A stretch of 64,000 nucleotides of DNA from a virus. The stretch is taken from positions 32,001-96,000 of IMG/VR virus record IMGVR_UViG_3300027906_000003; one strand, 5' to 3'. Below, piece by piece: positions 3,160 through 26,461 of the stretch (positions are counted from its first letter, which is position 1; the number at the start of each line of letters is the position of its first letter). Both the position numbers and the translations under genes were made by a program. Below the pieces are notes generated by a model. The model saw only the letters and a program-made list of their open reading frames with translations. It had not been told where the DNA came from and ran no database searches.

Positions 3160-4629
3160 ATGGCAGCAATAATAACAGAGAAGTTTCGTGTTCATAATGC
3201 GAGACAATTCAAAGAAGACTTTGGTGAAGCAGAATCATCAACATATGTTTTCATAGGTCGTTCATCATCATGGGCAGACGATAATAGTCCACCAGCACCT
3301 GCAAACGGAGTCGGTGAAGAAATACAAGCATGGGAAGACATGTTGGCACTTAAAAAAGTTGACCCAGCAGATGTATCTCATGGTATAACAAGATATAACT
3401 GGACATCAGGAACAAAATACGATGAGTATTCACATGATTACAGTGCAACAAATAAAACACCTGCAACAAACAAAGATAGTTTGTATGAAGGAAGATTTTA
3501 TGTGATGACTGATGAATATCATGTCTACAAATGTATCAGAACAGGAAGAGATAGTTCAGGTGCAGTTGTAAACTCAGTAAACAAACCAACAGGAACAGAT
3601 GTATCAGTTCTATTTGAAGGAACACCAGCTGATGAGGGTGGAACAGACGGAATGCCTTATCTTTGGAAGTATATGTATACTATATCTGCTTCAGATACAA
3701 TCAAGTTCGTGACTAACGACTTTATACCTGTTAAGACATTAGGTGCAAAGACAGGTATTTTTGGAACTCATACAAACGGTGGTCTGAACTCCTCAGCAGA
3801 CAACGATAGTTCACAACAATATCAAGTAGAGACAAATGCTGTCGATGGTTCAATCTTACATATTAAAGTTGACAATCCAGGTTCTGGATATACAGATGGA
3901 ACTTACACGAATGTCGATATCGATGGAGATGGTTCATCTGGAAAATGCACTGTTAAGGTAGTTTCAGGTGGTCTAAGAGAAATCGATGTGACTAACCGAG
4001 GAAGTTTATATAAACAAGCATCTATTGATGTTGCGGGTATATCAAGCATCGGTGGTGGTTCAGGTGGAGTTGCAACTCCAGTAATATCACCTCAGTTCGG
4101 ACATGGTGCTGACCCTGTAGAAGAATTAGGTGGAAACTACATCATCGTTAATTCAAGATTAGAATTCAATGAGGGTGCAGGAGATTTCCCTGTAGATAAC
4201 GATTTCAGACGAATTGGTCTATGTCAAGACCCATTTGCATTTGGAACAACAAACAGAGCAACTGCAGCTACTATGTTTGCTTATGGCAAAATGACTTTAT
4301 CTGCAATTGGTTCACTTGGTGTAGATGACTTAATACATAGTGCATCATCTGATGGTTCTGGTGTGGCTGCGGCTAGAGTAGTTTCAATTTCAGGAACAGT
4401 AGTATCATTTTTACCAATCGCAAACAGTGCGGGTGGTTATGTAGACTTCGTAGCAGGAAATACAGTTCACAAAATAGGAGTTGGTTCAATCGGAACTATA
4501 AACTCTTCAAGTATGGTGAATCCAGAGGTTGCAAAACATACAGGTAGAATGATGTATATTGAGAATAGAGGTGCGGTAACTCGTGCAAGTGACCAGATTG
4601 AAGATATCAAACTGATTATCGAAATGTAA
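3160..4629 (+). CDS. gp8: Baseplate wedge subunit gp8
   Basis: MAAIITEKFR N-terminus, FYVMTDEYHVYKC, YLWKYMY, GHGADPVEELGG and C-terminal QIEDIKLIIEM. GAGGAG SD and CATAAATA late-promoter variant upstream. Confidence 0.9.
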   Translation: MAAIITEKFRVHNARQFKEDFGEAESSTYVFIGRSSSWADDNSPPAPANGVGEEIQAWEDMLALKKVDPADVSHGITRYNWTSGTKYDEYSHDYSATNKTPATNKDSLYEGRFYVMTDEYHVYKCIRTGRDSSGAVVNSVNKPTGTDVSVLFEGTPADEGGTDGMPYLWKYMYTISASDTIKFVTNDFIPVKTLGAKTGIFGTHTNGGLNSSADNDSSQQYQVETNAVDGSILHIKVDNPGSGYTDGTYTNVDIDGDGSSGKCTVKVVSGGLREIDVTNRGSLYKQASIDVAGISSIGGGSGGVATPVISPQFGHGADPVEELGGNYIIVNSRLEFNEGAGDFPVDNDFRRIGLCQDPFAFGTTNRATAATMFAYGKMTLSAIGSLGVDDLIHSASSDGSGVAAARVVSISGTVVSFLPIANSAGGYVDFVAGNTVHKIGVGSIGTINSSSMVNPEVAKHTGRMMYIENRGAVTRASDQIEDIKLIIEM

Positions 4630-11387: not shown

Positions 11388-11600
11388 ATGGAAGAGTATG
11401 CACAAGTTGAAGGACATTCTAATCTTTTAAGAGATGAAGAATCTTCTGCAATTGTAAATACAGACATTGAACAATGGAAACTTGCAAAACAAAGAAAATT
11501 GCGTTTTCAAAACCAAGCGAAAGAGATAAATAGTTTAAAGAGTGAAGTTGGTGAAATTAAAAACCTACTTAACGATATATTAGGAAAGTTAAATGGCTAA
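11388..11600 (+). CDS. Small coiled-coil protein typically following VrlC-like gene
   Basis: VEGHSNLLRD..S.AIVN motif and C-terminal heptads; overlaps the next start. Confidence 0.7.
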   Translation: MEEYAQVEGHSNLLRDEESSAIVNTDIEQWKLAKQRKLRFQNQAKEINSLKSEVGEIKNLLNDILGKLNG

Positions 11601-13071
11601 AACCGTAGATAATTACAGCACAATAAACGAATTCAGAGAGAGATATAATGAACTTGCCACAGATGTAGGTGAGGTTTCAGGATTAAGACCTGCGTTAGGA
11701 GAAAATCTTGTTGATGCCGTTAACGCAGTAGAAGATAAAGCATTCTATTTTGGAAAGTATAGATATGTTGCAACTGCAGGACAACAAACATTCACAGGTG
11801 CAGATGCAAATGGAAACACTCTTAAATATAAAGGAAATAGAGTTCAAGTATTTAAGAATGGTTCGTTATTAGAAGAACAAACTGATTGGCAGGTTGGTGG
11901 ACTTGCAGGTGCTTTCTATTATGACATACAATTGATATCGGCGGCAAGTGCTAATGATTTAATACAAATCTATGCTTACACAGGTTCTTTTGAAGGAACT
12001 GCTACATCAACTGCAATACTTTCATTCTTTACAGAAACATTACAGAACACAATCTATAACACAAATTCAAATGGTGTTATACTTCAAGGAGATAATTCAT
12101 CTCCTACAACAACCTTACAAGGTGGATATACTTTACAACTTGCAGGTAAAACTTATGCAGAAGATGACCTAACACTTGCAACAGGTAAACTATTAACTGC
12201 ACCTACTATGACTGATGGCACTTTATCAATCGATAATGGTAACATAACAGCTGCGGTCAATGGAACATTCTCAGCACAAGTTCAAGCAGAACACTTAAAA
12301 TCAACAGATGATTTAGAAGTAGCCGAAGATGCAACAATTGGTGGTGACTTAGGAGTCACTGGAACTGCAACAGTAGGAACTTTGTCATCAGGTGGTATAA
12401 CAGGAACAACTGCAAGTTTTACAGGAAATGTAGACTTAGGAAGTGATGCAAATGATACAGTATCAATTCTTGGTGTTGTAGATACAAATATAATGCCTAA
12501 TTCAGATAATACTAGAACATTAGGTTCTTCTACAAAGAGATTTCAGAGTTTACATGCAACAACTATTACTGCAACAACATTAAATGGTGAACTAGTAGGT
12601 AATGTAAAAGGTGATATCCTTAAAGATGACGGAACCAAAATTTTAGAAAACTCAACAGGTGCGTTGACTGGTACCGTTTCTAGTGTTTCAAATCATGCAG
12701 CGTCAGGATTATCAGATATTAATTATACATCATCACCAGCTGCTGGTCAAGTCTTAGCATGGGATGCCTCAAACAATTATTGGGAACCTGTTAACCCTAC
12801 AAATACAACAGACTCAGTATCAGAGGGTTCAAACAATTATTACTTTACAGATGATAGGGTCAATGCAATCATTAATGCTAATGCAGGTTTAGCCAAATCA
12901 TATGCTACCAACACAGGAAATTCTTTGGATGGTGACATAAATATTAGTGTTAACACCGCAGAAGGAGTCAAAATTGATGGTGATAATGTGGTGATGGACA
13001 AAACAATAGTAAGTTCAGCTCCTTCTGGAGTTGGGTCGACATCATCAGGTCACTTATGGTTTGTAGTATAA
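11593..13071 (+). CDS. Tail fibre / whisker-like structural protein
   Basis: Gly/Thr-rich beta repeats, GQVLAWD and TDSVSEGSNNYYFT fibre motifs; ends in ...GHLWFVV. Confidence 0.65.
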   Translation: MAKTVDNYSTINEFRERYNELATDVGEVSGLRPALGENLVDAVNAVEDKAFYFGKYRYVATAGQQTFTGADANGNTLKYKGNRVQVFKNGSLLEEQTDWQVGGLAGAFYYDIQLISAASANDLIQIYAYTGSFEGTATSTAILSFFTETLQNTIYNTNSNGVILQGDNSSPTTTLQGGYTLQLAGKTYAEDDLTLATGKLLTAPTMTDGTLSIDNGNITAAVNGTFSAQVQAEHLKSTDDLEVAEDATIGGDLGVTGTATVGTLSSGGITGTTASFTGNVDLGSDANDTVSILGVVDTNIMPNSDNTRTLGSSTKRFQSLHATTITATTLNGELVGNVKGDILKDDGTKILENSTGALTGTVSSVSNHAASGLSDINYTSSPAAGQVLAWDASNNYWEPVNPTNTTDSVSEGSNNYYFTDDRVNAIINANAGLAKSYATNTGNSLDGDINISVNTAEGVKIDGDNVVMDKTIVSSAPSGVGSTSSGHLWFVV

Positions 13072-13074
13072 ATT

Positions 13075-14469
13075 ATGTCAGAGAAAATTTATGTAAATAC
13101 TGGTTCGACCTTTCAACAACCATTTAATGATAGGTCACCTAAGAATGCTCAGCAACCTTATATAGCTAATGCTCAGACTCCCTATATAGCTAATTCACAA
13201 ACACCCTTTACATATTCAAATAGACAACCTGCAAAGTATCAGAATCCAACTGATGCTCAGCAACCTTATATAGCTAATGCACAACAGTCGTATCCATATA
13301 TTGCTAATGCAAGACAACCTTACATAGCTAACGCACAACAACCTTATCCATATCAGGCAAATAGTCAGAATCCTTATATTGCGAATGCAAGGCAACCTGC
13401 GAAGTATCAACATCCGACATCTTCTCAGACTCCTTACATAGCTAATGCACAGACACCGTATCCTGCTAATGCAAGACAACCTAGTGATTATCAAACACCT
13501 TATATTGCAAATTATCAAACAGCGTATCCTGCAAATGCGAGACAACCTGTAGATGCTCAACAACCTAGTAATAGTCAAACACCATATCCTGCAAATGCTA
13601 GGCAACCTGCAAAATATAGAAACCCATTTACATATAATGCGAGGACTCCAGCATCTTCACAAACTCCTGTAACCTATGATGTGTGGGGTGGGGGAAATGC
13701 TCAATCAACATCACAATTAGAAACCACAACTGATGTGTCAGCACCTATGGCACCCTTTTCACAAACGCCTACTTTTAATTACCAGACTGTAGGTCAACCA
13801 ACATCAATTCATTGGGGTCCAGGTTCAACACATATAAAAAATAGTCCAAATTCATCATATGCTCCAACAACTGCACCTATGATTTGGAGTACCCAGCAAT
13901 ATAACACTTATAATTACAGTTTCGGTTCTTGTTGGGCTCAGTTCTTTATTGGTTATGAATCTAGTTCAGGCAAAGTTTACTACGGTTATGGTGCGGGTAA
14001 TTCTCAATTCGGAGGCACAAGTGTTGGCACCTCTGGTAATAGAGTATATTTACCTTTAACTGAATTAAGTAATAATAATGTTATTGATAGTTCTTGGTCA
14101 ATATCAGTCAAATATACAGTTCAATCACAAAGTATAGTTCAAGGTGGTACATCTTCTCAACATCCAGCTAGTCCGAGTTATGGTACAGGTTTAGCTGCTG
14201 GAACATATGTAAACATATGGGATGGTTCTTCTGTTCAAAGTAGTGGCATTGAAACATTCATGTGGGAGGCGGTATCATCATCTAACCCAGGAAATGGAGA
14301 TGCAAGGGTTTCTGCAAGTGGTGTAGTATTTACAGTTAAGGCACATAAGACTGGTCAAACATCATACTATACACATTATATTGTAGCACAACATGGAGCT
14401 GGTACCAGCTCACCTTTTGGTGAAATATATTTGAGGTCACTCTATGGTAATAACCATGCACCAGTATAA
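13075..14469 (+). CDS. Pro/Tyr/Gln repeat protein A1 (YIAN-type stalk plus C-terminal globular, putative adhesin domain)
   Basis: aa 16-197 are PYIANxQx-type repeats, followed by about 265 aa of non-repetitive aromatic/Ser/Gly-rich sequence. Confidence 0.75.
   Translation: MSEKIYVNTGSTFQQPFNDRSPKNAQQPYIANAQTPYIANSQTPFTYSNRQPAKYQNPTDAQQPYIANAQQSYPYIANARQPYIANAQQPYPYQANSQNPYIANARQPAKYQHPTSSQTPYIANAQTPYPANARQPSDYQTPYIANYQTAYPANARQPVDAQQPSNSQTPYPANARQPAKYRNPFTYNARTPASSQTPVTYDVWGGGNAQSTSQLETTTDVSAPMAPFSQTPTFNYQTVGQPTSIHWGPGSTHIKNSPNSSYAPTTAPMIWSTQQYNTYNYSFGSCWAQFFIGYESSSGKVYYGYGAGNSQFGGTSVGTSGNRVYLPLTELSNNNVIDSSWSISVKYTVQSQSIVQGGTSSQHPASPSYGTGLAAGTYVNIWDGSSVQSSGIETFMWEAVSSSNPGNGDARVSASGVVFTVKAHKTGQTSYYTHYIVAQHGAGTSSPFGEIYLRSLYGNNHAPV
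13120..13665 (+). repeat. Coding tandem repeat, 25 units of 6/8/10 aa (YIAN type)
   Basis: Parsed by hand from the translation; nearly all units begin with Pro. Confidence 0.9.
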
Positions 14470-14483
14470 GGAGATGAGAAGAT

Positions 14484-15200
14484 ATGCCTACAGTTAGTCA
14501 ACCAGTCATAATTCAGCAACCTTATATTGCAAGTGGTCAATCGCCGGTCGATTATAGAGTTCCGTTTACATATCAGGCAAGACAACCTGGAACATATAGA
14601 CACCCCTTTACATATCAAGTTCCGTTTACATATCAGGCAAGACAACCTGGAACATATGATGCAAGGCAACCTGCAAAGTATCAACACCCATTTATATATC
14701 AGGCACGACAGCCTTCTACATATCAGGCAAGACAACCTGCTATATACAGACATCCGGCAGATTATCAAACACCATTTACATATGCTCGTAGACAACCGGC
14801 AACATATGCAAGACAAGGTCAAACTCCGTTTACATATCAAGCAAGAACACCTTTCACATATGATAGACAAGGTCAAACACCATTTACATATCAGGCAAGA
14901 AGTCCGTTTACATACAGAAATCCAACAGACTATCAGACACCTTATATTGCAGATGCAAGACAACCTGGAACATATTCTAATAGACAACCATCCACTTATC
15001 AGAATAGACAACCATTCACATATCAACTTTCGGTTCCAAGCACAAGACCAATAGGTCCTTTGGCAAAAGCAAAACAAGTTTGGGTAAATGATAACGGAAC
15101 TTTAAAAAAGGCAAGTAGTGTATATGTAAATGATGGTGGAACGGCTAAAAAGATACATCAAACACAACCTACAGCACAATTAACAGAACCTAATACCTAG
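14484..15200 (+). CDS. Pro/Tyr/Gln repeat protein B1 (PFTY-type; mirror partner of A1)
   Basis: PFTYQARQ/PGTY repeats; C-terminal VWVNDNG and VYVNDGG motifs; AAGGAG SD upstream. Confidence 0.75.
   Translation: MPTVSQPVIIQQPYIASGQSPVDYRVPFTYQARQPGTYRHPFTYQVPFTYQARQPGTYDARQPAKYQHPFIYQARQPSTYQARQPAIYRHPADYQTPFTYARRQPATYARQGQTPFTYQARTPFTYDRQGQTPFTYQARSPFTYRNPTDYQTPYIADARQPGTYSNRQPSTYQNRQPFTYQLSVPSTRPIGPLAKAKQVWVNDNGTLKKASSVYVNDGGTAKKIHQTQPTAQLTEPNT
14502..15047 (+). repeat. Coding tandem repeat, 25 units of 6/8/10 aa (xTY type)
   Basis: Unit lengths are the reverse of those in 13120-13665. Confidence 0.9.
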
Positions 15201-15213
15201 AGTTCTTTTTTCG

Positions 15214-15221
15214 TATAAATA
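15214..15221 (+). promoter_or_regulatory. T4-type late promoter TATAAATA
   Basis: Exact consensus, 5 nt before ATG 15227. Confidence 0.8.
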
Positions 15222-15226
15222 GTTAT

Positions 15227-15562
15227 ATGGCTATTATCGCAAACTTATATATTGACCAAGGAACAGACTTCACAATTACAGTTGATGTCACAGACGCTGC
15301 TGGAGATGTTCTTAATTTGACTAACTATTCTGCGCTTGCACAAGTAAGAAAAACATATAGTTCTTCTAGTGCTTCAGTAGCATTTACTACTTCGATATCA
15401 GCAGCTCAAGGTCAAGTCACATTAAGTCTAAATGATACACAAACAAAAGCTTTAGAAGCAGGTCGATATGTTTACGATTTAAATATCACAAGTGCTGGTG
15501 GGATAACTACTAGAGTTGTCGAAGGACAAGCAATAGTGACACCAGGAGTAAGTCGGAGTTAA
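15227..15562 (+). CDS. Small Ig-like structural/adaptor protein (BppU-N-like)
   Basis: NLYIDQGTDF...GRYVYDL...TRVVEG..VTPGV pattern common in phage structural modules. Confidence 0.65.
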   Translation: MAIIANLYIDQGTDFTITVDVTDAAGDVLNLTNYSALAQVRKTYSSSSASVAFTTSISAAQGQVTLSLNDTQTKALEAGRYVYDLNITSAGGITTRVVEGQAIVTPGVSRS

Positions 15563-15564
15563 TT

Positions 15565-15807
15565 ATGTCGAACATTAAAGGAACAGTTTCAAGAGTTGTA
15601 GGTATCTCAGGTAGAGTTGGAGGCACAGGAAACATTCGTGCTAAACAAGTCCAAGTTGGTTCAGGTGGAGGTGCAGACTTATCAGCAAAATCTATAAATG
15701 AACTTGCAGATGTTAATGCAACTGAAACAGATGATGGTCTTCTTTCATATGACCAAGCATCAGATAAATGGACAACCACTACTACGATAGACGGCGGAAC
15801 ATTTTAA
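15565..15807 (+). CDS. Small fibre-associated protein ending in DGGTF
   Basis: LADVN...DGLLSYD....KW fibre motif; C-terminus TIDGGTF. Confidence 0.65.
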   Translation: MSNIKGTVSRVVGISGRVGGTGNIRAKQVQVGSGGGADLSAKSINELADVNATETDDGLLSYDQASDKWTTTTTIDGGTF

Positions 15808-15823
15808 AAAGTTTTAATATATT

Positions 15824-16687
15824 ATGGATGAATGGTCACCTTTGCGTGAAATCATTGTAGGCACACTTCAAGGTTTCGAAGAACATAATCACTATTCATC
15901 ATATCATTCCTCAAATAAATTCATTAAATCATTATATGATGAAGCAGAAGAGGGTCTACAAACATTTCAAAAACTATTAGAGAAAGAGGGTGTAATTGTT
16001 CATCGTCCTCGTGGTTTTTGTTATAATGTAAGAGATTGTGCTGTAGTATTAGGTGATACTATTGTTGAGGGTTCTATGAGATATGAAGAAGAGTATCTTT
16101 GGTTGGAATCTTTAAGACCAATATTCTTAGAAAGTGATTTAAATTATTTGATAGGTCCTAAACCCACATGGAAAAATGACGAACCCATATTTGATGGTGC
16201 AAATCTTTGTAAACTAGGAGATAGTGTTCTAATTGCAATTAATGAAACTGCAAATGATAAAGGAAAAATGTGGTTAGAGAAAACATTTCCAAATATAAAC
16301 TTCAATTCAATAAATCTAAAAGAAGATGTATCTCATATAGATACAACTATAGTTCCTATATCTTCTAATACTGTTTTATTAAACTCAAATAGATTAGACG
16401 AAGATACACTTCCATCTGTATTGAATGATTGGAATAAAATATGGGTTAAAGAAGAAGATTTAGTAGATGAAGCTAAAATGTTTGGATTTAAATATGGTGC
16501 AAGTAAGTGGATAGGTATGAATACTCTTTCTCTTAATGAGAATACACTATTCATTAGTGAAGGACAAGTAAAACTTATAGACATATTAGAGAGTAAGAAC
16601 TTTAATTGTATACCTGTTCCTTTAAGATATACCAGAGAACTTTGTGGTGGTTTACATTGTTGCACTTTAGACCTGGTTAGAGAATAG
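15824..16687 (+). CDS. Amidinotransferase (glycine/inosamine-phosphate amidinotransferase family)
   Basis: DEWSPLREIIVG, RD, FDGAN, HIDTT and GGLHCCTLDL motifs supply the Asp-His-Cys catalytic set of the pentein fold. Confidence 0.85.
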   Translation: MDEWSPLREIIVGTLQGFEEHNHYSSYHSSNKFIKSLYDEAEEGLQTFQKLLEKEGVIVHRPRGFCYNVRDCAVVLGDTIVEGSMRYEEEYLWLESLRPIFLESDLNYLIGPKPTWKNDEPIFDGANLCKLGDSVLIAINETANDKGKMWLEKTFPNINFNSINLKEDVSHIDTTIVPISSNTVLLNSNRLDEDTLPSVLNDWNKIWVKEEDLVDEAKMFGFKYGASKWIGMNTLSLNENTLFISEGQVKLIDILESKNFNCIPVPLRYTRELCGGLHCCTLDLVRE

Positions 16688-16693
16688 GATTTG

Positions 16694-16701
16694 TATAAAT
16701 A
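16694..16701 (+). promoter_or_regulatory. T4-type late promoter TATAAATA
   Basis: Exact consensus upstream of a long structured leader. Confidence 0.8.
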
Positions 16702-16835: not shown

Positions 16836-18476
16836 ATGGCAACAGTAATTCAAATCAAACGAAGCACAGGAGTATCCGCACCAGCAGTCTCAGACTTAGC
16901 TGAAGGCGAATTAGCTTATGTGCAGGATAGGTCGAATTCAGGTGCTGGTGCTAAACTATACATCGAATCAGTAGATTCTGATAACTCTACTCCATTAATT
17001 CAAGCAATTGGTGGTAAGTATTATACAGATATCTTAGCTGGTTCAGCTGCGACTCCTGCCAACTTTAAAGTTGGTAATGGTTCAACAGCAGGTGCAAGTT
17101 TACAACTATTAGAAGACAGTGACAACGGAACACATTTCGTTGGATTAAAAGCTGCCGATACAATAGCTTCATCAGTTACCTTTACACTTCCAGCTGCCGA
17201 CGGTTCTGCTAACCAAGTGTTAGGAACAGACGGCTCAGGAACACTTTCGTTCTTATCAACAACATCTACGCTCGCAGGTGCAAGTGATACTAATATCACA
17301 ACACCAGCTGATGCGTCAATGCTTTTATATGACACAGGAACATCGAAATGGATAGACAATGTTATGTCCGGCGATGCTACTATGACAGATGGTGGTGTTT
17401 TAACAATCGCAAACGATGCCGTTGAACAGGCTATGATTGCAGACGACGCTGTTGGTGCAGACCAACTTGCGGCTTCAGCAGTTGTATTTGGTTCATTAGC
17501 AGGTGCGATGGTACAAACATCAGGTGAATCATTTAGTGATGACGATGTCTCATTAATGACTTCAGCTGCAATCTTGGACAAAATCCAAGCAACTGCAACA
17601 CTAGAAGACTTAGATGTCGCTGGTGATTCAGGAACAGGTGCAGTAGATTTAGACTCACAATCATTAACAATCGCTGGTACAGCGAACGAGATTGAAACAT
17701 CTGCTAGTGGACAAACTATAACAGTTGGTCTTCCTAACAATGTGACAGTCGCAAACAATTTAACCGTTTCAGGAAACTTAATATCAGACGATATTACAAC
17801 TGCAACTTTAACAACATCTGGTAACTTAACAGTCACAGGAAACTTGGCCGTTAACGGAACTACAACTACAGTAAACTCAACAACAGTAAATATTGCTGAC
17901 CCTGTATTTGAAATTGGTGACGATTCATCAGATGACAACCTAGACAGAGGTATTAAATTTAAATACAACTCTGGTGGTGCAAAGATTGGTTTCTTCGGAA
18001 TGGATGATACTGACGGTTCTTTTGTTGCTCTATCAAGTGCAACAGATAGTTCATCAGTATTCTCTGGAACTGCAATGGCAGGTAAATTCGGCAACTTAAC
18101 AGCTGCTGGTTTAGCAATGTCAGGAAGTATTTCTTCTTATGCAGGTTCAGCTCCAACAGATGGACAGTTATTAATAGGTGATACAGCTTCAGGAATAATG
18201 GACGCTGCTACTCTTACTGCTGGTGATGGTATTGACATCACTAACGGTGCAGGTGCAATTACGATTGCTACCGAAGTGGGTACTGCTTCTAACTTAGGTT
18301 CTGTAATTATCGCAGTTGGGGAAGGCATGGATGTGGCTTACTCAGGTGGTACTGCTACTCTTTCAGGAGAGGATGCAACTACAACCAATAAAGGTATTGC
18401 AAGTTTTGCTACAGCAAACTTTACAGTATCAAGTGGTGCGGTTTCTATCACAGGTATCGATGGCGGTACATTTTAA
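16836..18476 (+). CDS. Major fibre/filament subunit (IQIKRS N-domain, DGGTF C-terminus)
   Basis: MATVIQIKRS...LAEGELA N-terminus, GNLTVTGNLAVNGTTTTVNST fibre motif, strong AGGAG SD. Confidence 0.7.
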   Translation: MATVIQIKRSTGVSAPAVSDLAEGELAYVQDRSNSGAGAKLYIESVDSDNSTPLIQAIGGKYYTDILAGSAATPANFKVGNGSTAGASLQLLEDSDNGTHFVGLKAADTIASSVTFTLPAADGSANQVLGTDGSGTLSFLSTTSTLAGASDTNITTPADASMLLYDTGTSKWIDNVMSGDATMTDGGVLTIANDAVEQAMIADDAVGADQLAASAVVFGSLAGAMVQTSGESFSDDDVSLMTSAAILDKIQATATLEDLDVAGDSGTGAVDLDSQSLTIAGTANEIETSASGQTITVGLPNNVTVANNLTVSGNLISDDITTATLTTSGNLTVTGNLAVNGTTTTVNSTTVNIADPVFEIGDDSSDDNLDRGIKFKYNSGGAKIGFFGMDDTDGSFVALSSATDSSSVFSGTAMAGKFGNLTAAGLAMSGSISSYAGSAPTDGQLLIGDTASGIMDAATLTAGDGIDITNGAGAITIATEVGTASNLGSVIIAVGEGMDVAYSGGTATLSGEDATTTNKGIASFATANFTVSSGAVSITGIDGGTF

Positions 18477-20754: not shown

Positions 20755-21015
20755 ATGGCAACAACAAATACATTTGTAGTAGAATACGGATTGACAGTTG
20801 GAACAACCGAAGTTATAAATTCATCAGGAAAGATACAAGCGGCAGCTATTTCAACCTTAGATTCTGATGACCTTTCGGAAGGTTCTACAAATCAATATTT
20901 TACTAACGCGAGAGCAAGAGGGTCTATATCCTTAGCTTCTGGAGAGACAAATCTCAGTTATAATTCTACATCTGGAGAACTTAGTCTACCAACAGTTAAC
21001 GGAGGTACCATCTAA
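20755..21015 (+). CDS. Short fibre linker protein
   Basis: FVVEYGL N-motif, DDLSEGSTNQYFTNARA motif, NGGTI C-terminus. Confidence 0.65.
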   Translation: MATTNTFVVEYGLTVGTTEVINSSGKIQAAAISTLDSDDLSEGSTNQYFTNARARGSISLASGETNLSYNSTSGELSLPTVNGGTI

Positions 21016-23084
21016 TGGCGGGTGAAAAGAACTTTAATATTAAAAATGGACTATCAGTTCAAGGCGTAGAAGTAATAAACTCGTCTGGTGACTTAGTTGC
21101 CGGCGGAGTTGGAACAGCAGTTCAAGAGGCCATTGCAGATAAAATCGGTGGAATACTCAGTGCAACAGGTGGTGCAACTGCAACATACAATGATGGTGCA
21201 GACACTATCGTTATTGATGTTCCAATTACAGATGAAGATAACATGGCATCAAACAGTGCTACTGCTATTCCTTCACAACAATCAGTCAAAGCATATGTAG
21301 ACTCTCAAATCTTAACAAAAGACAATACAGATGAGATAACAGAGGGTTCAACTAATTTATATTTCACAAACGCAAGAGCAGATGCCAGAATTGCAAACGC
21401 AATCAAAGATGAAGATAACATGGCATCAGATAGTGCAACTCATGTTCCTTCACAACAATCTGTTAAGGCTTTTGTAGCCACACAACTTGCAACTAAAGAC
21501 GCATTATCAGAACTTTCAGGTGATTCAGACGATATCACAGAGGGTACAACAAACTTATTCCATACATCTGAAAGAGTTGCAGATGTTGTTGGAGGAATGG
21601 TGACTTCAAATACCGAATCTGGTATAACAGTCACATATGAGGATGGTGATAACACTTTAGACTTTGCAATAGGAACACTAAACCAAAACACAACAGGTTC
21701 AGCAGCTACTCTAACAACTCCAAGAGCAATTTCAGGTACCAACTTTGATGGTTCTGCAGACATTACTTTAACGACTGCCGGAATAACAGAAAACACAAAT
21801 CTCTACTATACAAACGAAAGAGTTGATGATAGAGTCAACGCATTATTGACTGCTGGTACTAACATAACAACATCATACGATGATGCAAATGGTACCTTAA
21901 CAATTAACTCTTCAGGTAAAACAGAAGAAGAAATTGAAGACATTGTAAACGGATTAGTTGTTGGTGGAACAGGAATATCATCAACATATGATGACGCTGC
22001 TGGAACATTAACACTTGCAACTTCTATTACACAATATGCAGATTCAGATGCTAGAGGTGCTATCTCAGTCACAGATTCAGGTGGAGATGGTAGTTTAGCA
22101 TATAATAACTCAACAGGTGTAATAACTTATACAGGACCAAGTGCATCAGAAGTAAGAGCTCATCTAAGTGCTGGAACTGGTGTATCATATTCAGGTGGTG
22201 CAATCAGTATTGGTCAGGCAGTTTCAACTTCTTCAGATGTCACATTTGGGGATATAGCTGCAACAGATATAACACTATCTGGAAACTTAACAGTTAATGG
22301 TACCACAACAACAGCTGCTTCTACTAACACAGTAATCACAGATAGATTGATTGAGTTAGGAAACGGAACAACAGGAACACCAGCAAATGATATGGGTCTT
22401 GTCTTCGAAAGAGGAAGTTCAGACAATGTATTTGTAGGTTGGGACGAAAGTGCAGACGCTGTTACCGTAGGAACAGGTTCATTTACAGGTGCTAGCACAG
22501 GTGATTTAACACATACAGTAGCTAACTTTACTGCTGGTGTTGGAACATTTGCCTCATTAGATATTTCAGGAAACGCAGACATTGACGGAACAATGGAAGC
22601 AGATGCGTATACAGTTGACGGAACTGCATTAAACGAATACATTGCCGATACAGTTGGTGCAATGGTATCGTCAAATACTGAAAGTGGCATCACAGTTGCT
22701 TATCAAGACGGAGACAATACATTAGACTTTACAATCGGAACACTTAACCAAAACACTACAGGTTCAGCGGCAACATTAACAACAGCCAGAGCAATAGCAT
22801 TAGGTGGAGATTTATCAGGTTCTGCAAACTTTGATGGTTCTGCAGATATAACAATTACTGCTACAGTAGCAGATGATTCACACAATCATACAATTGCAAA
22901 TGTAGATGGACTACAAACTGCATTAGATTCAAAATATGATTCAGGTGATAATATTGCAGCGGGAACAATAACAACAACGAATGCAAGTAATTCGGGTGGA
23001 TATGTAAGAAATGTATATCAGTCAACATCTAATCCAGGCAGTAGTGATGGTGCAGTTGGTGACTTATGGATATTATACAGTTAA
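21015..23084 (+). CDS. Long fibre protein with internal duplications
   Basis: FNIKNGL N-motif. DEDNMAS...PSQQSVKA occurs twice and SNTESGITV...NQNTTGSAATLTT twice. Ends GDLWILYS. Confidence 0.7.
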   Translation: MAGEKNFNIKNGLSVQGVEVINSSGDLVAGGVGTAVQEAIADKIGGILSATGGATATYNDGADTIVIDVPITDEDNMASNSATAIPSQQSVKAYVDSQILTKDNTDEITEGSTNLYFTNARADARIANAIKDEDNMASDSATHVPSQQSVKAFVATQLATKDALSELSGDSDDITEGTTNLFHTSERVADVVGGMVTSNTESGITVTYEDGDNTLDFAIGTLNQNTTGSAATLTTPRAISGTNFDGSADITLTTAGITENTNLYYTNERVDDRVNALLTAGTNITTSYDDANGTLTINSSGKTEEEIEDIVNGLVVGGTGISSTYDDAAGTLTLATSITQYADSDARGAISVTDSGGDGSLAYNNSTGVITYTGPSASEVRAHLSAGTGVSYSGGAISIGQAVSTSSDVTFGDIAATDITLSGNLTVNGTTTTAASTNTVITDRLIELGNGTTGTPANDMGLVFERGSSDNVFVGWDESADAVTVGTGSFTGASTGDLTHTVANFTAGVGTFASLDISGNADIDGTMEADAYTVDGTALNEYIADTVGAMVSSNTESGITVAYQDGDNTLDFTIGTLNQNTTGSAATLTTARAIALGGDLSGSANFDGSADITITATVADDSHNHTIANVDGLQTALDSKYDSGDNIAAGTITTTNASNSGGYVRNVYQSTSNPGSSDGAVGDLWILYS

Positions 23085-23104: not shown

Positions 23105-23977
23105 ATGGTAACAGGTAATCAAAAGGTTAAAACCCCAGCTGGTTGGAATTCAACTAGAGGGGCTTGGGTTAAGACTGCATCAGACACATGGACAGATGTT
23201 GACCAGATTTATGTAAAAACTCCAACAGGTTGGAATAATGCGTCAGGTCAGGCAATTACTCAGAACCCTTACCCATATATTGCGAATAATCAAACCCCTT
23301 ATATTGCTAATGCTCAACAGCCTTATCCTTATATTGCGAATAACCAGACTCCATATATTGCAAATGGTCAACAACCATATCCGTATATAGCAAACAGTCA
23401 GACTCCTTATATAGCAAACGGTCAACAACCTTATCCATATCAGGCAAATAGTCAGACTCCTTATATTGCTAACGCACAACAACCGTATCCATATATTGCG
23501 AATAGTCAATCACCATATATTGCTAATGCAAGACAACCTGCAAAATATCAGAATCCTGTAAATGGACAACAACCCTATATTGCAAATGGTCAAAGAAATG
23601 AGTCATACAGAAATCCTGTAAACTATCAGACACCTTATATTGCAAATGCTAGACAACCTGCACATTATAGGAATCCTGTAAGTTATCGTGTGCCTTATAT
23701 TGCAAATGGTCAACAACCATTTACCTATAATGCAAGGTATCCGGCAACATATCCGGCAAATGCTCAGCAACCATTCACCTACAATGCAAGGTATCCTGCA
23801 ACATATCCGGCAAATGCAAGACAACCATTTACATATAATGCAAGATATCCTGCAAATGCAACATATCCTGCAAACGGACAACAACCGTCTACATATCCGT
23901 TCTTGTATAATGCACCTTATCCATTCTTCCAACCATTTGGTGGCGGCGGTGGTTCACCTAACATGAACTTGAAATAA
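23105..23977 (+). CDS. Pro/Tyr/Gln repeat protein A2 (YIAN-type)
   Basis: Three VKT..W motifs at the N-terminus, then 26 repeat units. Confidence 0.75.
   Translation: MVTGNQKVKTPAGWNSTRGAWVKTASDTWTDVDQIYVKTPTGWNNASGQAITQNPYPYIANNQTPYIANAQQPYPYIANNQTPYIANGQQPYPYIANSQTPYIANGQQPYPYQANSQTPYIANAQQPYPYIANSQSPYIANARQPAKYQNPVNGQQPYIANGQRNESYRNPVNYQTPYIANARQPAHYRNPVSYRVPYIANGQQPFTYNARYPATYPANAQQPFTYNARYPATYPANARQPFTYNARYPANATYPANGQQPSTYPFLYNAPYPFFQPFGGGGGSPNMNLK
23267..23884 (+). repeat. Coding tandem repeat, 26 units of 6/8/10 aa
   Basis: (10,8)x5,(6,6,8)x3,8,10,8,10,8,6,6. Confidence 0.9.
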
Positions 23978-24011
23978 TGGAGTATATAATGAATAAAACG
24001 GAGAACACACA

Positions 24012-24749
24012 ATGGCTATAGGATTTTACTGGACAAGTGCTCAAGGTAACACTAGGTCACCGTTTACTTATCAAGTCCCATTTACATATCGTGTGCCTTA
24101 CATTGCAAATGGTAGGTCACCATTTACTTATCAAGCATCATATCGTGTGCCTTATATTGCGAATGGTAGAAGTCCTTTCACATATCAAGCATCATATCGT
24201 GTGCCTTACATTGCAAATGGTAGGTCACCGTTTACATATAATGCAAGGTATCCGGCAGGTTATAGAAATCCGGTAAGTTATCGAGTTCCGTTTACATATT
24301 CAAATAGACAACCTGCATTATATCAGAATCCTGTAATTTATCAAGTTCCGTTTACTTACAACAATAGGTCTCCGTTTACATACAGAAACCCTGTAGATTA
24401 TAGAATACCGTTTACATATCAGTCAAGACAACCAGGCACATATCAGAGAACAGGACAAACTCCATTCACTTATCAGAATAGACAACCTGGAACATATGAA
24501 ACACAAGGTCAAACACCATTTACCTATCAAAACAGGCAACCAGGAACATATGATAGGCAAGGACAGACTCCATTCACTTATCAGAATAGACAACCTGGAA
24601 CATATGCAAGACAAGGTCAGACTCCATTCACTTATCAGAATAGACAACCTGGAACATATGCTACACAAGGTAGAACACCAGTGTCTCGTTGGGATGGAGT
24701 TTTATCACAAACTTGGCCAGCAGCTCCGTTTGATGCTACAAACTCATAA
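24012..24749 (+). CDS. Pro/Tyr/Gln repeat protein B2 (PFTY-type; mirror partner of A2)
   Basis: PFTY/PGTY repeats; GGAG SD upstream. Confidence 0.75.
   Translation: MAIGFYWTSAQGNTRSPFTYQVPFTYRVPYIANGRSPFTYQASYRVPYIANGRSPFTYQASYRVPYIANGRSPFTYNARYPAGYRNPVSYRVPFTYSNRQPALYQNPVIYQVPFTYNNRSPFTYRNPVDYRIPFTYQSRQPGTYQRTGQTPFTYQNRQPGTYETQGQTPFTYQNRQPGTYDRQGQTPFTYQNRQPGTYARQGQTPFTYQNRQPGTYATQGRTPVSRWDGVLSQTWPAAPFDATNS
24060..24677 (+). repeat. Coding tandem repeat, 26 units of 6/8/10 aa
   Basis: 6,6,8,10,8,10,8,(8,6,6)x3,(8,10)x5, the exact reverse of A2. Confidence 0.9.
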
Positions 24750-24808: not shown

Positions 24809-26461
24809 ATGGCAGCTGATTCTAAATTTATTGACATCAAAACAGTTGAAGATGTTGATAAGATAAAACAAATAGATTTCTCAGATGTAGAGAACGCATT
24901 CTCTATAAGAAACAAAGAAGATTCTGAACACTATCATTTAGGAAGTCTAAATGTGAATCGTGTTATGAAAGATATCAATCCTTGTTATCAAGTTCTTAAA
25001 AAAGTATTCGAAGAGAAAAAAATACCACCTCTTAAATTATTTACATATGGTGATGTAATAAATGATAGAAGAGGAAATACAATGTTGACTATGCACGGTT
25101 TAAAACACCATTCTCTAGTATATAACGCATTCCTACCTTATGGTTATACTTGTGCTCCAACTCCAGAAATGTTTCCAACAGGAACAAATACATCTGTAAT
25201 TAGAACAGAAGAAGACCCAAATGGAGAAAGGTCTATAAATTATTATGCAGTAGAAAAAGATGAAGAAGATAGTCAATCTCAACCACAAAAAACACTTTGG
25301 GATAGTTCTTACTATCACGCTGCGAAAGCACACTGGTTAACTCAAAGTATAATTGAAGATGGTTTATGGGCACCAATACAAGGAATTATTTTAAAAGATA
25401 CTTCATGGATTGATGAAAACAATCCAGATGAAAAGTATAAATTCTATGTTCATCCAGGTTCTGTTCGTTCAGGTGTTATTGAAGAAATGCAAGACCCTAG
25501 TATGATGTGTCATTTCTTTGACCCACATAACAAGGTTCCTGATGTTGAACCAGCAACAGTAGATGAGTTTTTGGATTATTGGAAAGACTTACTTGAAAAA
25601 AGAAATATAGAACAAGACAATCTATCTTTTATTATAACAGGTGGAGTTATAGAGGTAAGCAGTGAGTTTGCAAATGTGTCTGATTTTAGGCCTAAAATAT
25701 ATGAGTTTAATAAGAAAGTTCATAAACTTGCAAAAGGTAAACCTCTAAACATATACATTGGTTATGACTCAACACATAATCAATTAGAAGAATTAACCAA
25801 GTTCTCCATAGAAGACTCAATTAAACAAAGTTTTTCTGCAAATACAAAAACAAATCGATTCATTCCTGAGATAAAAATGCTTGACTATTCTAAGATTCCA
25901 GTGTATAATAGGGAGTATGCAAATCAATCTACTGCGTTTACATACAGTAGATTTTTGATACCTTACTTAGAGAATTATGAAGGATTCAGTATGTTTCTTG
26001 ATGATGATATTCTTTTTGAAGAGAATTTATTACCAATGTTCTACTATCTAAATCCTGATGATGCGGTTGCGTGTATTCAATACCCACAATATAAACACGA
26101 TTCTGTTAAGTTTAATGGTGAAATAAACATAGATTATCCATGTAAGTTGTGGTCTTCATTAATGATATTTAATAATGGACATGAAGACTGTAAGAAACTA
26201 ACACCAGAAGTTGTTAATACATGGACAGGTGCTCAGTTGCATCAGTTCGAATGGACAGATAAATTGAGTAAGATACCTGAACACTATATTTTTACTGAAG
26301 GATATGATAATCCAGAAACCAAATGGGGTTGTTCTGGTTATCATTATACAAGAGGTGGTCCTTGGATAGATAACATGGACACATCTAATATTAAAAGACT
26401 ATCACACTATGAGAAAATAAAGACTCGTAGAGACAACCTAAATAATTTGAAGAGAGGATAA
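24809..26461 (+). CDS. Two-domain protein with C-terminal GT-A glycosyltransferase
   Basis: IYIGYD, STAFTYSRFLIP, MFLDDD (DxD), WSSLMIFN and HYTRGGPW motifs. N-terminal ~300 aa unassigned. Confidence 0.75.
   Translation: MAADSKFIDIKTVEDVDKIKQIDFSDVENAFSIRNKEDSEHYHLGSLNVNRVMKDINPCYQVLKKVFEEKKIPPLKLFTYGDVINDRRGNTMLTMHGLKHHSLVYNAFLPYGYTCAPTPEMFPTGTNTSVIRTEEDPNGERSINYYAVEKDEEDSQSQPQKTLWDSSYYHAAKAHWLTQSIIEDGLWAPIQGIILKDTSWIDENNPDEKYKFYVHPGSVRSGVIEEMQDPSMMCHFFDPHNKVPDVEPATVDEFLDYWKDLLEKRNIEQDNLSFIITGGVIEVSSEFANVSDFRPKIYEFNKKVHKLAKGKPLNIYIGYDSTHNQLEELTKFSIEDSIKQSFSANTKTNRFIPEIKMLDYSKIPVYNREYANQSTAFTYSRFLIPYLENYEGFSMFLDDDILFEENLLPMFYYLNPDDAVACIQYPQYKHDSVKFNGEINIDYPCKLWSSLMIFNNGHEDCKKLTPEVVNTWTGAQLHQFEWTDKLSKIPEHYIFTEGYDNPETKWGCSGYHYTRGGPWIDNMDTSNIKRLSHYEKIKTRRDNLNNLKRG

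What the first reader, a model, noticed from the sequence alone, without database searches (positions are those of the whole stretch)
13120..15047. Pair 1 (A1/B1): 25-unit mirror match with a globular tip on A1
A1 units: 6,6,8,8,8,6,6,8,10,8,10,8,6,6,8,8,6,8,8,6,6,8,6,8,6 (182 aa). B1 reversed is identical. Three unit boundaries lack the initial Pro (SYPYIANARQ, AYPANARQ in A1; SVPSTR in B1) and were placed by motif similarity. Opposed examples: PFTYSNRQ/PYIADARQ, PAKYQN/PTDYQT, PAKYQH/PADYQT, PSDYQT/PAKYQH, PAKYRN/PVDYRV, PFTYNART/PYIASGQS. A1 then continues into a ~265-aa non-repetitive domain that would sit at the distal end. If fully extended (about 3.3 A per residue) the stalk would be roughly 60 nm, a thin tether presenting a receptor-binding head (inference).
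Basis: partly seen in the sequence, partly recalled or inferred. Interest (0 to 1): 0.85.

Follow-up and report, generated by a model that had tools for sequence, protein, structure and literature searches.

The report
Mirror-coded two-chain phage tail filament
Two neighbouring genes of an uncultured marine T4-like phage encode repeat proteins that match unit by unit when one is read backwards, so they most likely zip together head-to-tail into a thin tail filament with a binding domain at its far end.

Summary
A1 (13075-14469, 464 aa) and B1 (14484-15200, 238 aa) each carry 182 residues of Pro-initiated 6-, 8- or 10-residue units. A1's unit order is B1's order reversed. A rule-based split shares 21 of B1's 24 boundaries (0 of 5000 shuffles reach this).

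The rule is conserved. All 50 distinct adjacent pairs from 114 viral contigs match better reversed than forward, with 38 different unit orders.

Opposed units are complementary: PFTY-type faces PYIA-type in 620 of 641 eight-residue pairs, never its own type. One antiparallel register puts 45 aromatic residues opposite Gly/Ala/Ser and all four Lys/Asp pairs opposite each other. Close relatives show compensated swaps and indels.

Best reading: an antiparallel, register-coded A/B filament at the end of a tail fibre. The conserved end docks on the upstream fibre; A1's variable C-terminal beta-sandwich sits distal. Physical pairing, stoichiometry, the ~60 nm length and receptor binding are inferred.

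No Pfam family, solved structure, cultured phage or paper matched. The scan had already followed up the sister pair of this same genome (e1-6156761).

The parts
11593..13071 (+). Upstream fibre gene (492 aa). Its C-terminus ends G-H-L-W-F-V-V and is the proposed docking partner of the conserved end of the A1/B1 filament.
   Evidence: ORF. Of 38 distinct upstream tails, all 17 that precede pairs of this type end G-H-(L/I)-(W/Y)-(F/L)-(V/L)-(V/I). The 21 that precede the other pair type end G-D-(L/M)-W-x-x-Y-(S/A). Docking itself is inferred.
13075..14469 (+). Gene A1, 464 aa: short N-terminal hairpin motif, 25-unit repeat run, C-terminal globular domain.
   Evidence: No Pfam or PHROG family. 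Exact sequence seen in a cluster of 4 metagenomic members, none named.
13075..13119 (+). A1 residues 1-15, carrying one I-Y-V-N-T-G type hairpin motif (conserved end).
   Evidence: Conserved in every type-1 relative examined.
13120..13665 (+). A1 repeat run, residues 16-197: 25 Pro-initiated units of 6, 8 or 10 residues (182 aa).
13666..14466 (+). A1 C-terminal domain, residues 198-464 (267 aa). A predicted beta-sandwich occupies roughly its last 175 residues. Proposed distal head.
   Evidence: AF2 model: mean pLDDT 54.4, pTM 0.61, strands between domain residues 88 and 259. Only 3 proteins at E <= 0.001 among 1.84 billion representatives. No clear PDB match.
14484..15200 (+). Gene B1, 238 aa, starting 14 bases after A1's stop with an AAGGAG ribosome-binding site.
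14502..15047 (+). B1 repeat run, residues 7-188: 25 units (182 aa) whose order is the reverse of A1's.
15048..15197 (+). B1 C-terminal 50 residues with two V-(W/Y)-V-N-D-x-G-T hairpin motifs (conserved end, next to A1's N-terminus if the chains run antiparallel).
   Evidence: Matches phrog_13729 at E 2.4e-5 over residues 195-227. Weak match to the N-terminus of ZF40 gp68, the gene after tail fibre gp67.
15227..15562 (+). Downstream 111-aa gene, related to PHROGs annotated as L-shaped tail fibre assembly protein. Context only.
   Evidence: phrog_1084 at E 1.6e-28, phrog_3304 at 4.4e-26, weak Pfam LtfC at 0.0076.
23105..24749 (+). Paralogous second pair A2/B2 with a different unit order. It serves here as the specificity control.
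   Evidence: A2 against reversed B2 shares 26 of 27 boundaries. Cross pairs A1-B2 (11) and A2-B1 (12) are at the shuffle level.

Best explanation
A1 and B1 are the two chains of one filament. Their 182-residue repeat runs lie side by side in opposite directions and in one fixed register.

Each Pro-initiated unit of A1 faces a unit of the same length in B1. A unit with an aromatic residue at position 4 (PFTY-type) faces a unit with a small residue there (PYIA-type). The irregular order of 6-, 8- and 10-residue units acts as a barcode. It allows one register and one partner, and keeps A1/B1 apart from the second pair A2/B2 made in the same cell.

Unit lengths are all even, and covariation sits on even positions along an anti-diagonal. 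This fits two extended, beta-like strands with one aromatic/alanine face. Pro would sit on the outward edge of each strand.

The conserved end combines A1's N-terminus (one hairpin motif) with B1's C-terminus (two motifs). It most likely docks on the C-terminal G-H-L-W peptide of the fibre encoded just upstream. A1's C-terminal beta-sandwich would then be the variable, distal, host-binding head.

Shown here: the mirror rule, its conservation, the complementarity, the compensated changes and the tail-fibre gene context. Inferred: physical pairing, beta conformation, docking, distal position and receptor binding. Open: whether the filament is one A/B ribbon or three ribbons packed by their aromatic faces.
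For: 1. Mirror match far above chance, and pair-specific. 21 of 24 boundaries are shared, 0 of 5000 shuffles reach this, and cross pairs sit at the null level. With validated units, 26 of 26 boundaries coincide, against 12 for the best slip.

2. Conservation with variation. 101 of 114 related viral loci hold two repeat ORFs. All 50 distinct adjacent pairs match better reversed than forward, with 12 to 71 units. There are 38 distinct unit orders, and the cognate B is best or tied-best for 44 of 52 A chains. The rule survives a swapped gene order in L020 and L025.

3. Pairing code over 1393 opposed units.
- Eight-residue units: PFTY-type faces PYIA-type in 620 of 641 pairs, with 0 PFTY/PFTY and 5 PYIA/PYIA.
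- Ten-residue units: PYPY-type faces the Gly-containing type in 243 of 254, with no like-with-like.
- Six-residue units: 421 of 494 are mixed.

4. Residue-level geometry.
- Mutual information among 208 distinct unit pairs peaks at I6-F2 (0.78), I2-F6 (0.71), I2-F8 (0.56), I4-F6 (0.54) and I8-F2 (0.52). All are even-even and anti-diagonal.
- Of 13 registers scanned over 47 pairs, one stands out. It has side-chain volume correlation -0.54, MI 1.60, 24% aromatic/small columns and no aromatic/aromatic columns.
- In A1/B1 that register gives 45 aromatic/small columns, 4 Lys/Asp pairs and 0 like charges. The next best register gives 22 aromatic/small columns.

5. Compensated changes among five close pairs.
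- Units 16, 19 and 22 swap type in both chains.
- Unit 18 shortens from 8 to 6 in both chains.
- Units 13+14 become one 12-residue unit in both chains.
- Lys and Asp are lost together at units 6 and 23.

6. No simple DNA duplication or inversion reverses unit order in a protein, so selection on pairing is the economical cause (reasoning).

7. Context. The pair lies among baseplate wedge and fibre-like genes of a T4-like myophage. Type-specific upstream fibre tails are found in 38 of 38 distinct cases. The A-N and B-C ends are conserved while A C-terminal domains vary.
Against: - No direct evidence that the proteins bind, that they are in virions, or that they are made in equal amounts.
- The unit-pair counts and mutual information are not corrected for shared ancestry. 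Many of the 52 pairs are close relatives, so effective sample sizes are smaller than the raw counts.
- AF2 gave no confident structure for B1 alone (pLDDT 33.6), so the beta-ribbon geometry rests on sequence statistics only.
- The head domain model has modest confidence, and its first 85 residues are unmodelled. It has no recognisable receptor-binding relative.
- A two-stranded ribbon with an exposed aromatic face is physically unusual. A higher-order assembly is therefore likely but unresolved.
- Eight of 52 A chains had a non-cognate B scoring higher. Among them are the window's own A1, whose rule-based split misses its non-Pro boundaries, and L095 and L028, whose repeat runs come out short.
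Confidence: 0.62

Rival explanations
1. Same antiparallel pairing, but B1 is a full-length template or chaperone. It holds A1 in register during assembly and is then released or degraded, so the mature filament lacks B1.
For: Phage fibres often need dedicated assembly proteins encoded next to them (established knowledge). The next gene resembles a fibre-assembly PHROG. The twin hairpin motif of B1 weakly matches the N-terminus of a small ZF40 protein encoded right after a tail fibre gene. That is the usual position of a fibre assembly gene (recalled).
Against: - The complementarity runs residue by residue over 182 positions and is kept across 38 unit orders. That is more than a transient helper usually needs.
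- In type-1 pairs the three conserved hairpin motifs are split between A and B, which suggests B contributes to the final docking end.
- No Pfam chaperone family matched B1.
Confidence: 0.13
2. The A/B filament is a virion or cell-surface appendage other than a tail-fibre tip, for example a whisker, a head fibre or a tether to particles or mucus. The A1 C-terminal domain would not be the host receptor binder.
For: No receptor-binding fold was recognised. The Q/N/Y-rich composition could be generally adhesive (inference).
Against: Both pairs sit inside the fibre and baseplate block, directly after fibre-like genes with pair-type-specific C-terminal peptides. The variable far end and conserved near end follow the usual pattern of receptor-binding fibres (established knowledge).
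Confidence: 0.12
3. The two chains do not pair. Each is a self-folding solenoid or a disordered low-complexity region, and the mirrored order is a by-product of repeat evolution.
For: AF2 predicted no structure for B1 alone, which would fit disorder.
Against: - No duplication or inversion mechanism reverses unit order in a protein.
- The rule holds in 50 of 50 pairs with different orders.
- Non-cognate pairs in the same genome are at chance.
- Type complementarity, charge pairing and compensated indels have no explanation without contact.
- No compact solenoid was predicted.
Confidence: 0.04

Closest known systems
Needle domain of the T4 long tail fibre protein gp37 (recalled from the literature, not fetched here)
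   Same: A thin distal fibre shaft in a T4-like phage. It is built from extended strands that run along the fibre axis both outward and back, with the binding region at the far end.
   Different: In gp37 each of three identical chains folds back on itself, and His-x-His motifs bind iron. Here the outward and return strands would be two separate gene products. There are no His-x-His motifs in the repeats and no sequence or Pfam relation. Register is set by an irregular order of 6/8/10-residue units.
Spectrin alpha/beta antiparallel heterodimer (recalled)
   Same: Two different repeat proteins lie side by side in opposite directions to form one long filament.
   Different: Spectrin uses about 106-residue three-helix repeats. 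It has no unit-length barcode and is a cytoskeletal protein, so the analogy is of principle only.
Heterospecific coiled coils and nucleic-acid duplexes as pairing codes (general knowledge)
   Same: Partner and register are specified by complementary positions along two antiparallel or parallel strands. Compensatory changes keep the pairing.
   Different: Pro every 6-10 residues excludes long helices. Complementarity here is aromatic against small residue, plus Lys against Asp, in an extended chain.
Segmented T4 long tail fibre (gp34-gp35-gp36-gp37), joined end to end (recalled)
   Same: Successive genes encode successive fibre segments. The C-terminal end of one segment is proposed to dock the next one.
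   Different: The T4 fibre rod segments gp34, gp36 and gp37 are homotrimers, and gp35 is a single-chain hinge. The proposed joint here is between an upstream fibre of unknown stoichiometry and a two-chain module that supplies three hairpin motifs.

Membership tests
Phage tail fibre / receptor-binding module (functional class) | Encoded within the baseplate and fibre gene block of a tailed phage | tested here: met
   Baseplate wedge phrog_438 matches 3160-4629 at E 5e-127. Fibre-type PHROGs match 16836-18476 and 21015-23084. Sheath, portal and terminase lie downstream.
Phage tail fibre / receptor-binding module (functional class) | Conserved virion-proximal end and variable distal end among relatives | tested here: met
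   The A N-terminus and B C-terminus are conserved in each subtype. A C-terminal domains range from 0 to 384 residues and are of several unrelated kinds.
Phage tail fibre / receptor-binding module (functional class) | Presence in virions and binding to a host receptor | not testable with these tools
   No relative was detected among the 50,697 phage records searched. A tblastn low-complexity filter may hide repeat-only matches.
T4 gp37-type needle | His-x-His iron-binding repeats and sequence relation to gp37 | tested here: not met
   No His-x-His in either repeat run (sequences). No Pfam hit. No PDB sequence hit for B1, and only two antibody chains at E 0.078 and 0.5 for A1.
Collagen-like fibre | Gly at every third residue | tested here: not met
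   Repeat units of 6, 8 or 10 residues begin with Pro. Gly occurs only in the Gly-containing 10-residue type.
Triple beta-spiral fibre shaft (adenovirus/reovirus type) | Regular repeat of about 15 residues with a conserved turn | tested here: not met
   Unit lengths are 6, 8 and 10 in irregular order. No Pfam match.
Tail fibre assembly chaperone (for B1) | Match to a known chaperone family | tested here: inconclusive
   No Pfam family at E <= 0.01. The only hit is phrog_13729, of unknown function, on the C-terminal motifs.
Lectin or adhesin fold (for the A1 head) | Structural match of the C-terminal domain to a solved carbohydrate- or receptor-binding domain | tested here: inconclusive
   Foldseek found 0 matches at E <= 0.001, best 0.025 to C2 domains. 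The VIA-align wide search gave best Z 4.3 to Ig-like domains. Model pLDDT is only 54.

The most novel reading that the evidence does not exclude
These pairs represent a previously undescribed protein assembly principle: a duplex of two different polypeptides that recognise each other the way nucleic-acid strands do. The chains are antiparallel, with a small alphabet of complementary units (PFTY-type with PYIA-type, PYPY-type with the Gly-type, Lys with Asp). An irregular order of unit lengths fixes register and partner. This lets one phage build several non-interfering filaments of programmable length, from 12 to 71 units in relatives. It would also be a natural template for designing addressable protein nanofibres.
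Probability: 0.55. Interest if true: 0.92.

Novelty: categorically new. Interest (0 to 1): 0.88.

Why it matters
If the two chains really zip together as the comparative data imply, this is a new way for proteins to specify partner, register and length. It would be a natural pairing code written in short units and maintained by compensatory evolution.

- It would add a new shaft architecture to phage receptor-binding fibres.
- It would explain how abundant uncultured marine T4-like phages vary fibre length and swap distal heads.
- It would offer protein designers a ready-made set of orthogonal, length-programmable heterodimeric filaments.
- It is directly testable with two synthetic genes.

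Tried and rejected
**Complex prediction.** A1 residues 1-215 with B1, each as a 5-row alignment, gave no verdict: score 0.00 in both runs and controls not run. This is neither support nor evidence against binding.

**AF2 of B1 alone**: pLDDT 33.6 and no secondary structure. It gives no solenoid, but is also uninformative about the paired state.

**Fold searches of the A1 head model.** Foldseek against PDB had best E 0.025 to C2 domains. VIA-align wide had best Z 4.3. No usable match.

**ESM Atlas look-alikes**: all scores were 0.80-0.87, a range that shuffled proteins often reach. The 'pyocin knob' and 'gp37_C' rows at 0.83 are leads only and were not used.

**PDB sequence searches**: nothing for B1. 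For A1 there were two antibody chains at E 0.078 and 0.5, taken as chance.

**Cultured phages.**
- tblastn of A1 found no match.
- B1 hit three Pseudomonas phage records at E 3e-4. The annotated protein there is an unrelated nine-residue-repeat protein, so the match is taken as a chance hit between repeats, probably in another frame. Rejected.
- The A2 N-terminal domain found no match.
- The B1 C-terminal 54 residues hit only ZF40 gp68 at E 7e-4. ZF40 gp68 has no Pfam family.
- DNA search of 11593-16700 found no match.

**Search for a natural single-chain (fused, self-mirrored) form that AF2 could fold.** None was found among the repeat ORFs of 114 loci or the 251 proteins held. The best candidate, P0056, is self-similar only because it is mostly 6-residue units, and its unit types are not complementary.

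**Literature.** Five full-text searches returned nothing describing these proteins. I saw only the search listings and abstract starts, and read no paper. Supplements are closed and could hold relevant gene lists.

**Sequencing runs**. Near-identical short contigs occur in two further marine DNA runs, X2 and X3. Three short contigs covering 13075-13464 occur in one metatranscriptome library, X10. Contigs cannot show transcription, and DNA carry-over is possible. Parts without cover mean nothing.

**Promoter/terminator scan**: promoter-like sites at the shuffle level (26 against 26.6), not used.

**Other readings considered and rejected.** An inverted DNA duplication as the source of the mirror would not reverse unit order in the protein, and the antisense frames read quite differently. 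Collagen, triple beta-spiral and gp37-needle membership are covered in Membership tests.
Full report
**What is there.** The window is part of a 123,820-base viral record, estimated 69% complete. It is a T4-like myophage. Its sheath protein is 47-50% identical to those of Pelagibacter phages Mosig and HTVC008M and the Methylophilales Melnitz phages. The window also carries baseplate wedge, terminase, portal and scaffold genes.

The finding covers two adjacent plus-strand genes. A1 is 13075-14469 (464 aa) and B1 is 14484-15200 (238 aa). They are separated by 14 bases that contain an AAGGAG ribosome-binding site. Neither gene matches any Pfam family. The only PHROG match is phrog_13729, of unknown function, on B1 residues 195-227.

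**Checking the observation.** I segmented both proteins with a rule that needs no judgement: cut before every Pro, and merge pieces shorter than 6 residues with the next piece.
- A1 residues 16-197 give 25 units (182 aa). B1 residues 13-184 give 23 units.
- A1 against reversed B1 shares 21 of B1's 24 boundaries. Forward it shares 15. None of 5000 shuffles of B1's unit order reached 21 (mean 11.9, maximum 18).
- The second pair in the window, A2 (23105-23977) and B2 (24012-24749), shares 26 of 27 boundaries reversed. The cross combinations A1-B2 (11) and A2-B1 (12) are at the shuffle level.
The close homologues carry Pro at exactly those places, so the placements are correct.
- With these units, 26 of 26 boundaries coincide in register. 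The best slipped register shares 12 and the non-cognate partner's order shares 11.
The coordinates 13120 and 15047 are the exact ends of the two runs.

**Conservation.** Two scans of viral contigs returned 114 loci. Of these, 101 hold two repeat ORFs, 12 hold one (loci that end at a contig edge are common in this set) and 1 holds none.
- There are 50 distinct adjacent pairs, with 12 to 71 units. In all 50 the reversed match exceeds the forward match, for example 69 against 46 shared boundaries for a pair of 68 and 70 units.
- Among 52 pairs (these plus the window's two) there are 38 different unit orders. The cognate B is best or tied-best among all 52 B chains for 44 A chains. The median score is 0.93 for cognate pairs and 0.41 for non-cognate pairs.
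- In L020 and L025 the gene order is B then A, and the mirror still holds.
- The own genome holds only these two pairs.

**A pairing code.** Across 1393 opposed units with identical boundaries:
- Eight-residue units with an aromatic residue at position 4 (PFTY-type) face units with a small residue there (PYIA-type) in 620 of 641 cases. There were 0 PFTY/PFTY and 5 PYIA/PYIA cases.
- Ten-residue PYPY-type units face the Gly-containing type in 243 of 254 cases, never their own type.
- Six-residue units are mixed (Tyr-type with non-Tyr-type) in 421 of 494 cases.

These counts include close relatives and are not independent events.

Among five close pairs, changes are compensated:
- Units 16, 19 and 22 switch type in both chains.
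- Unit 18 loses two residues in both chains in L038.
- Units 13 and 14 are replaced by one 12-residue unit in both chains.
- Lys and Asp at position 3 of opposed six-residue units disappear together (units 6 and 23).
- No uncompensated length change is seen in that table.

**Geometry from sequence.** Mutual information between positions of 208 distinct opposed eight-residue unit pairs is concentrated on even positions and on anti-diagonals. The peaks are I6-F2 (0.78), I2-F6 (0.71), I2-F8 (0.56), I4-F6 (0.54) and I8-F2 (0.52).

I then slid the two chains through 13 registers over 47 pairs, about 9,100 columns. One register, in which positions i and j of opposed units satisfy i + j = unit length, stands out:
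- Side-chain volume correlation is -0.54, against -0.25 to +0.28 elsewhere.
- Mutual information is 1.60, against at most 1.24 elsewhere.
- 24% of columns pair an aromatic with Gly, Ala or Ser, and none pair aromatic with aromatic.

In A1/B1 this register gives 45 aromatic/small columns of 182, against 22 in the next best register. It places all four Lys/Asp pairs directly opposite and gives no like-charge column.

All unit lengths are even, and Pro recurs every 6-10 residues, which excludes long helices. I read this as two extended, beta-like strands with an aromatic/Ala face and Pro on the outward edge. That conformation is inferred, not shown.

**Ends and context.** Relatives fall into two subtypes.
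- In A1/B1's type, A begins with one I-Y-V-N-T-G-like motif and B ends with two V-Y-V-N-D-x-G-T-like motifs.
- In A2/B2's type, all three related motifs sit at the A N-terminus and B ends in a short conserved W-D...W-P peptide.
- The split of the three motifs between A's start and B's end makes sense only if those ends meet, which independently favours an antiparallel arrangement.

The gene immediately upstream always ends in a subtype-specific peptide. Seventeen of 17 distinct tails before type-1 pairs end G-H-(L/I)-(W/Y)-(F/L)-(V/L)-(V/I). Twenty-one of 21 before type-2 pairs end G-D-(L/M)-W-x-x-Y-(S/A). I followed this lead from earlier notes of the scan and confirmed it on independent loci. 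Docking itself remains an inference.

The other end varies. A's C-terminal part ranges from 0 to 384 residues. It includes the A1-type domain, unrelated globular domains and Hint/intein-like domains after a Gly run. B's N-terminus is usually only 6-22 residues. A conserved near end with a variable far end is the usual layout of receptor-binding fibres.

**The head.** The A1 C-terminal domain (267 aa) is rare: 3 proteins at E <= 0.001 among 1.84 billion representatives. An AF2 model from a 10-row alignment has mean pLDDT 54.4 and pTM 0.61. A beta-sandwich over its last ~175 residues has block pLDDT mostly 50-80, and the first 85 residues are unmodelled. Foldseek and VIA-align found no clear relative. 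I cannot call it a lectin or adhesin.

**What did not help.** The complex prediction gave no verdict. AF2 of B1 alone gave no structure, so at least no self-contained solenoid was predicted. There were no PDB sequence relatives and no homologue detected in 50,697 phage records. One apparent hit was rejected as a chance match between repeats. All 247 homologues listed are unnamed or 'hypothetical' metagenomic proteins. Five literature searches found nothing. Near-identical DNA occurs in two other marine runs, and short pieces occur in one metatranscriptome library, which does not prove expression.

**Verdict.** That is the signature of a structural constraint between the two chains. I put physical, antiparallel, in-register pairing at about 0.8. 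I put the fuller statement, a fibre-tip filament with A1's domain as distal binder, at about 0.6. Stoichiometry is open: one ribbon, or three ribbons packed by their aromatic faces in the manner of the gp37 needle.

I found no known family that it belongs to. As a way of specifying partner and register it has no described protein counterpart that I could find. The sister pair of this genome was already followed up by the scan with the same conclusion (e1-6156761). My analysis of A1/B1 was done independently of that report's details.

Noticed in passing
L109:3173-4603, L043:3995-5683, L024:993-2753; protein P0056: Several A-type chains in relatives end in a Gly run followed by Cys and a Hint/intein-like domain ending H-N. 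Precomputed Pfam Hint/intein families appear on many homologues (sequences). This suggests self-cleavage, or a reactive end, at the distal tip next to B's N-terminus. The window's A2 ends in a Gly run without such a domain.
   Followed up: partly
L020:3989-5462, L025:3986-5408: In these contigs the gene order is B then A, yet the mirror match is kept at 27 shared boundaries.
   Followed up: partly
L013:976-5050, L053, L071, L073: Giant pairs of 68-71 units per chain still mirror almost perfectly, with 68-70 shared boundaries. This implies filaments several times longer than A1/B1.
   Followed up: no
L116:2477-3046 (Pectobacterium phage ZF40 gp68): The twin hairpin motif of B1's C-terminus weakly matches (E 7e-4, 35% identity) the N-terminus of a 189-aa hypothetical protein encoded right after tail fibre gene gp67. 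The motif may be a general fibre-docking element.
   Followed up: partly
window 13064-13077: The stop of the upstream fibre gene lies within a T-A-T-A-A-A-T string resembling the T4 late-promoter box (recalled). It ends only 3 bases before A1's ATG, too close to serve A1, so significance is unknown.
   Followed up: no
window 24809-26461: The 550-aa gene after pair 2 has a weak glycosyltransferase family 8 match (E 1.1e-4, below the Pfam cut-off) and matches phrog_28018. It could be a fibre-modifying enzyme.
   Followed up: no
window 15227-15562: The 111-aa gene right after B1 matches PHROGs annotated as L-shaped tail fibre assembly protein, and weakly matches Pfam LtfC.
   Followed up: no
L115:2448-3770 (Pseudomonas phage Flu_PA14_4): A 440-aa hypothetical protein made of about 30 tandem nine-residue S-A-A-S-N-T-G-x-x repeats. 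It is unrelated to the finding and surfaced as a spurious tblastn hit.
   Followed up: no
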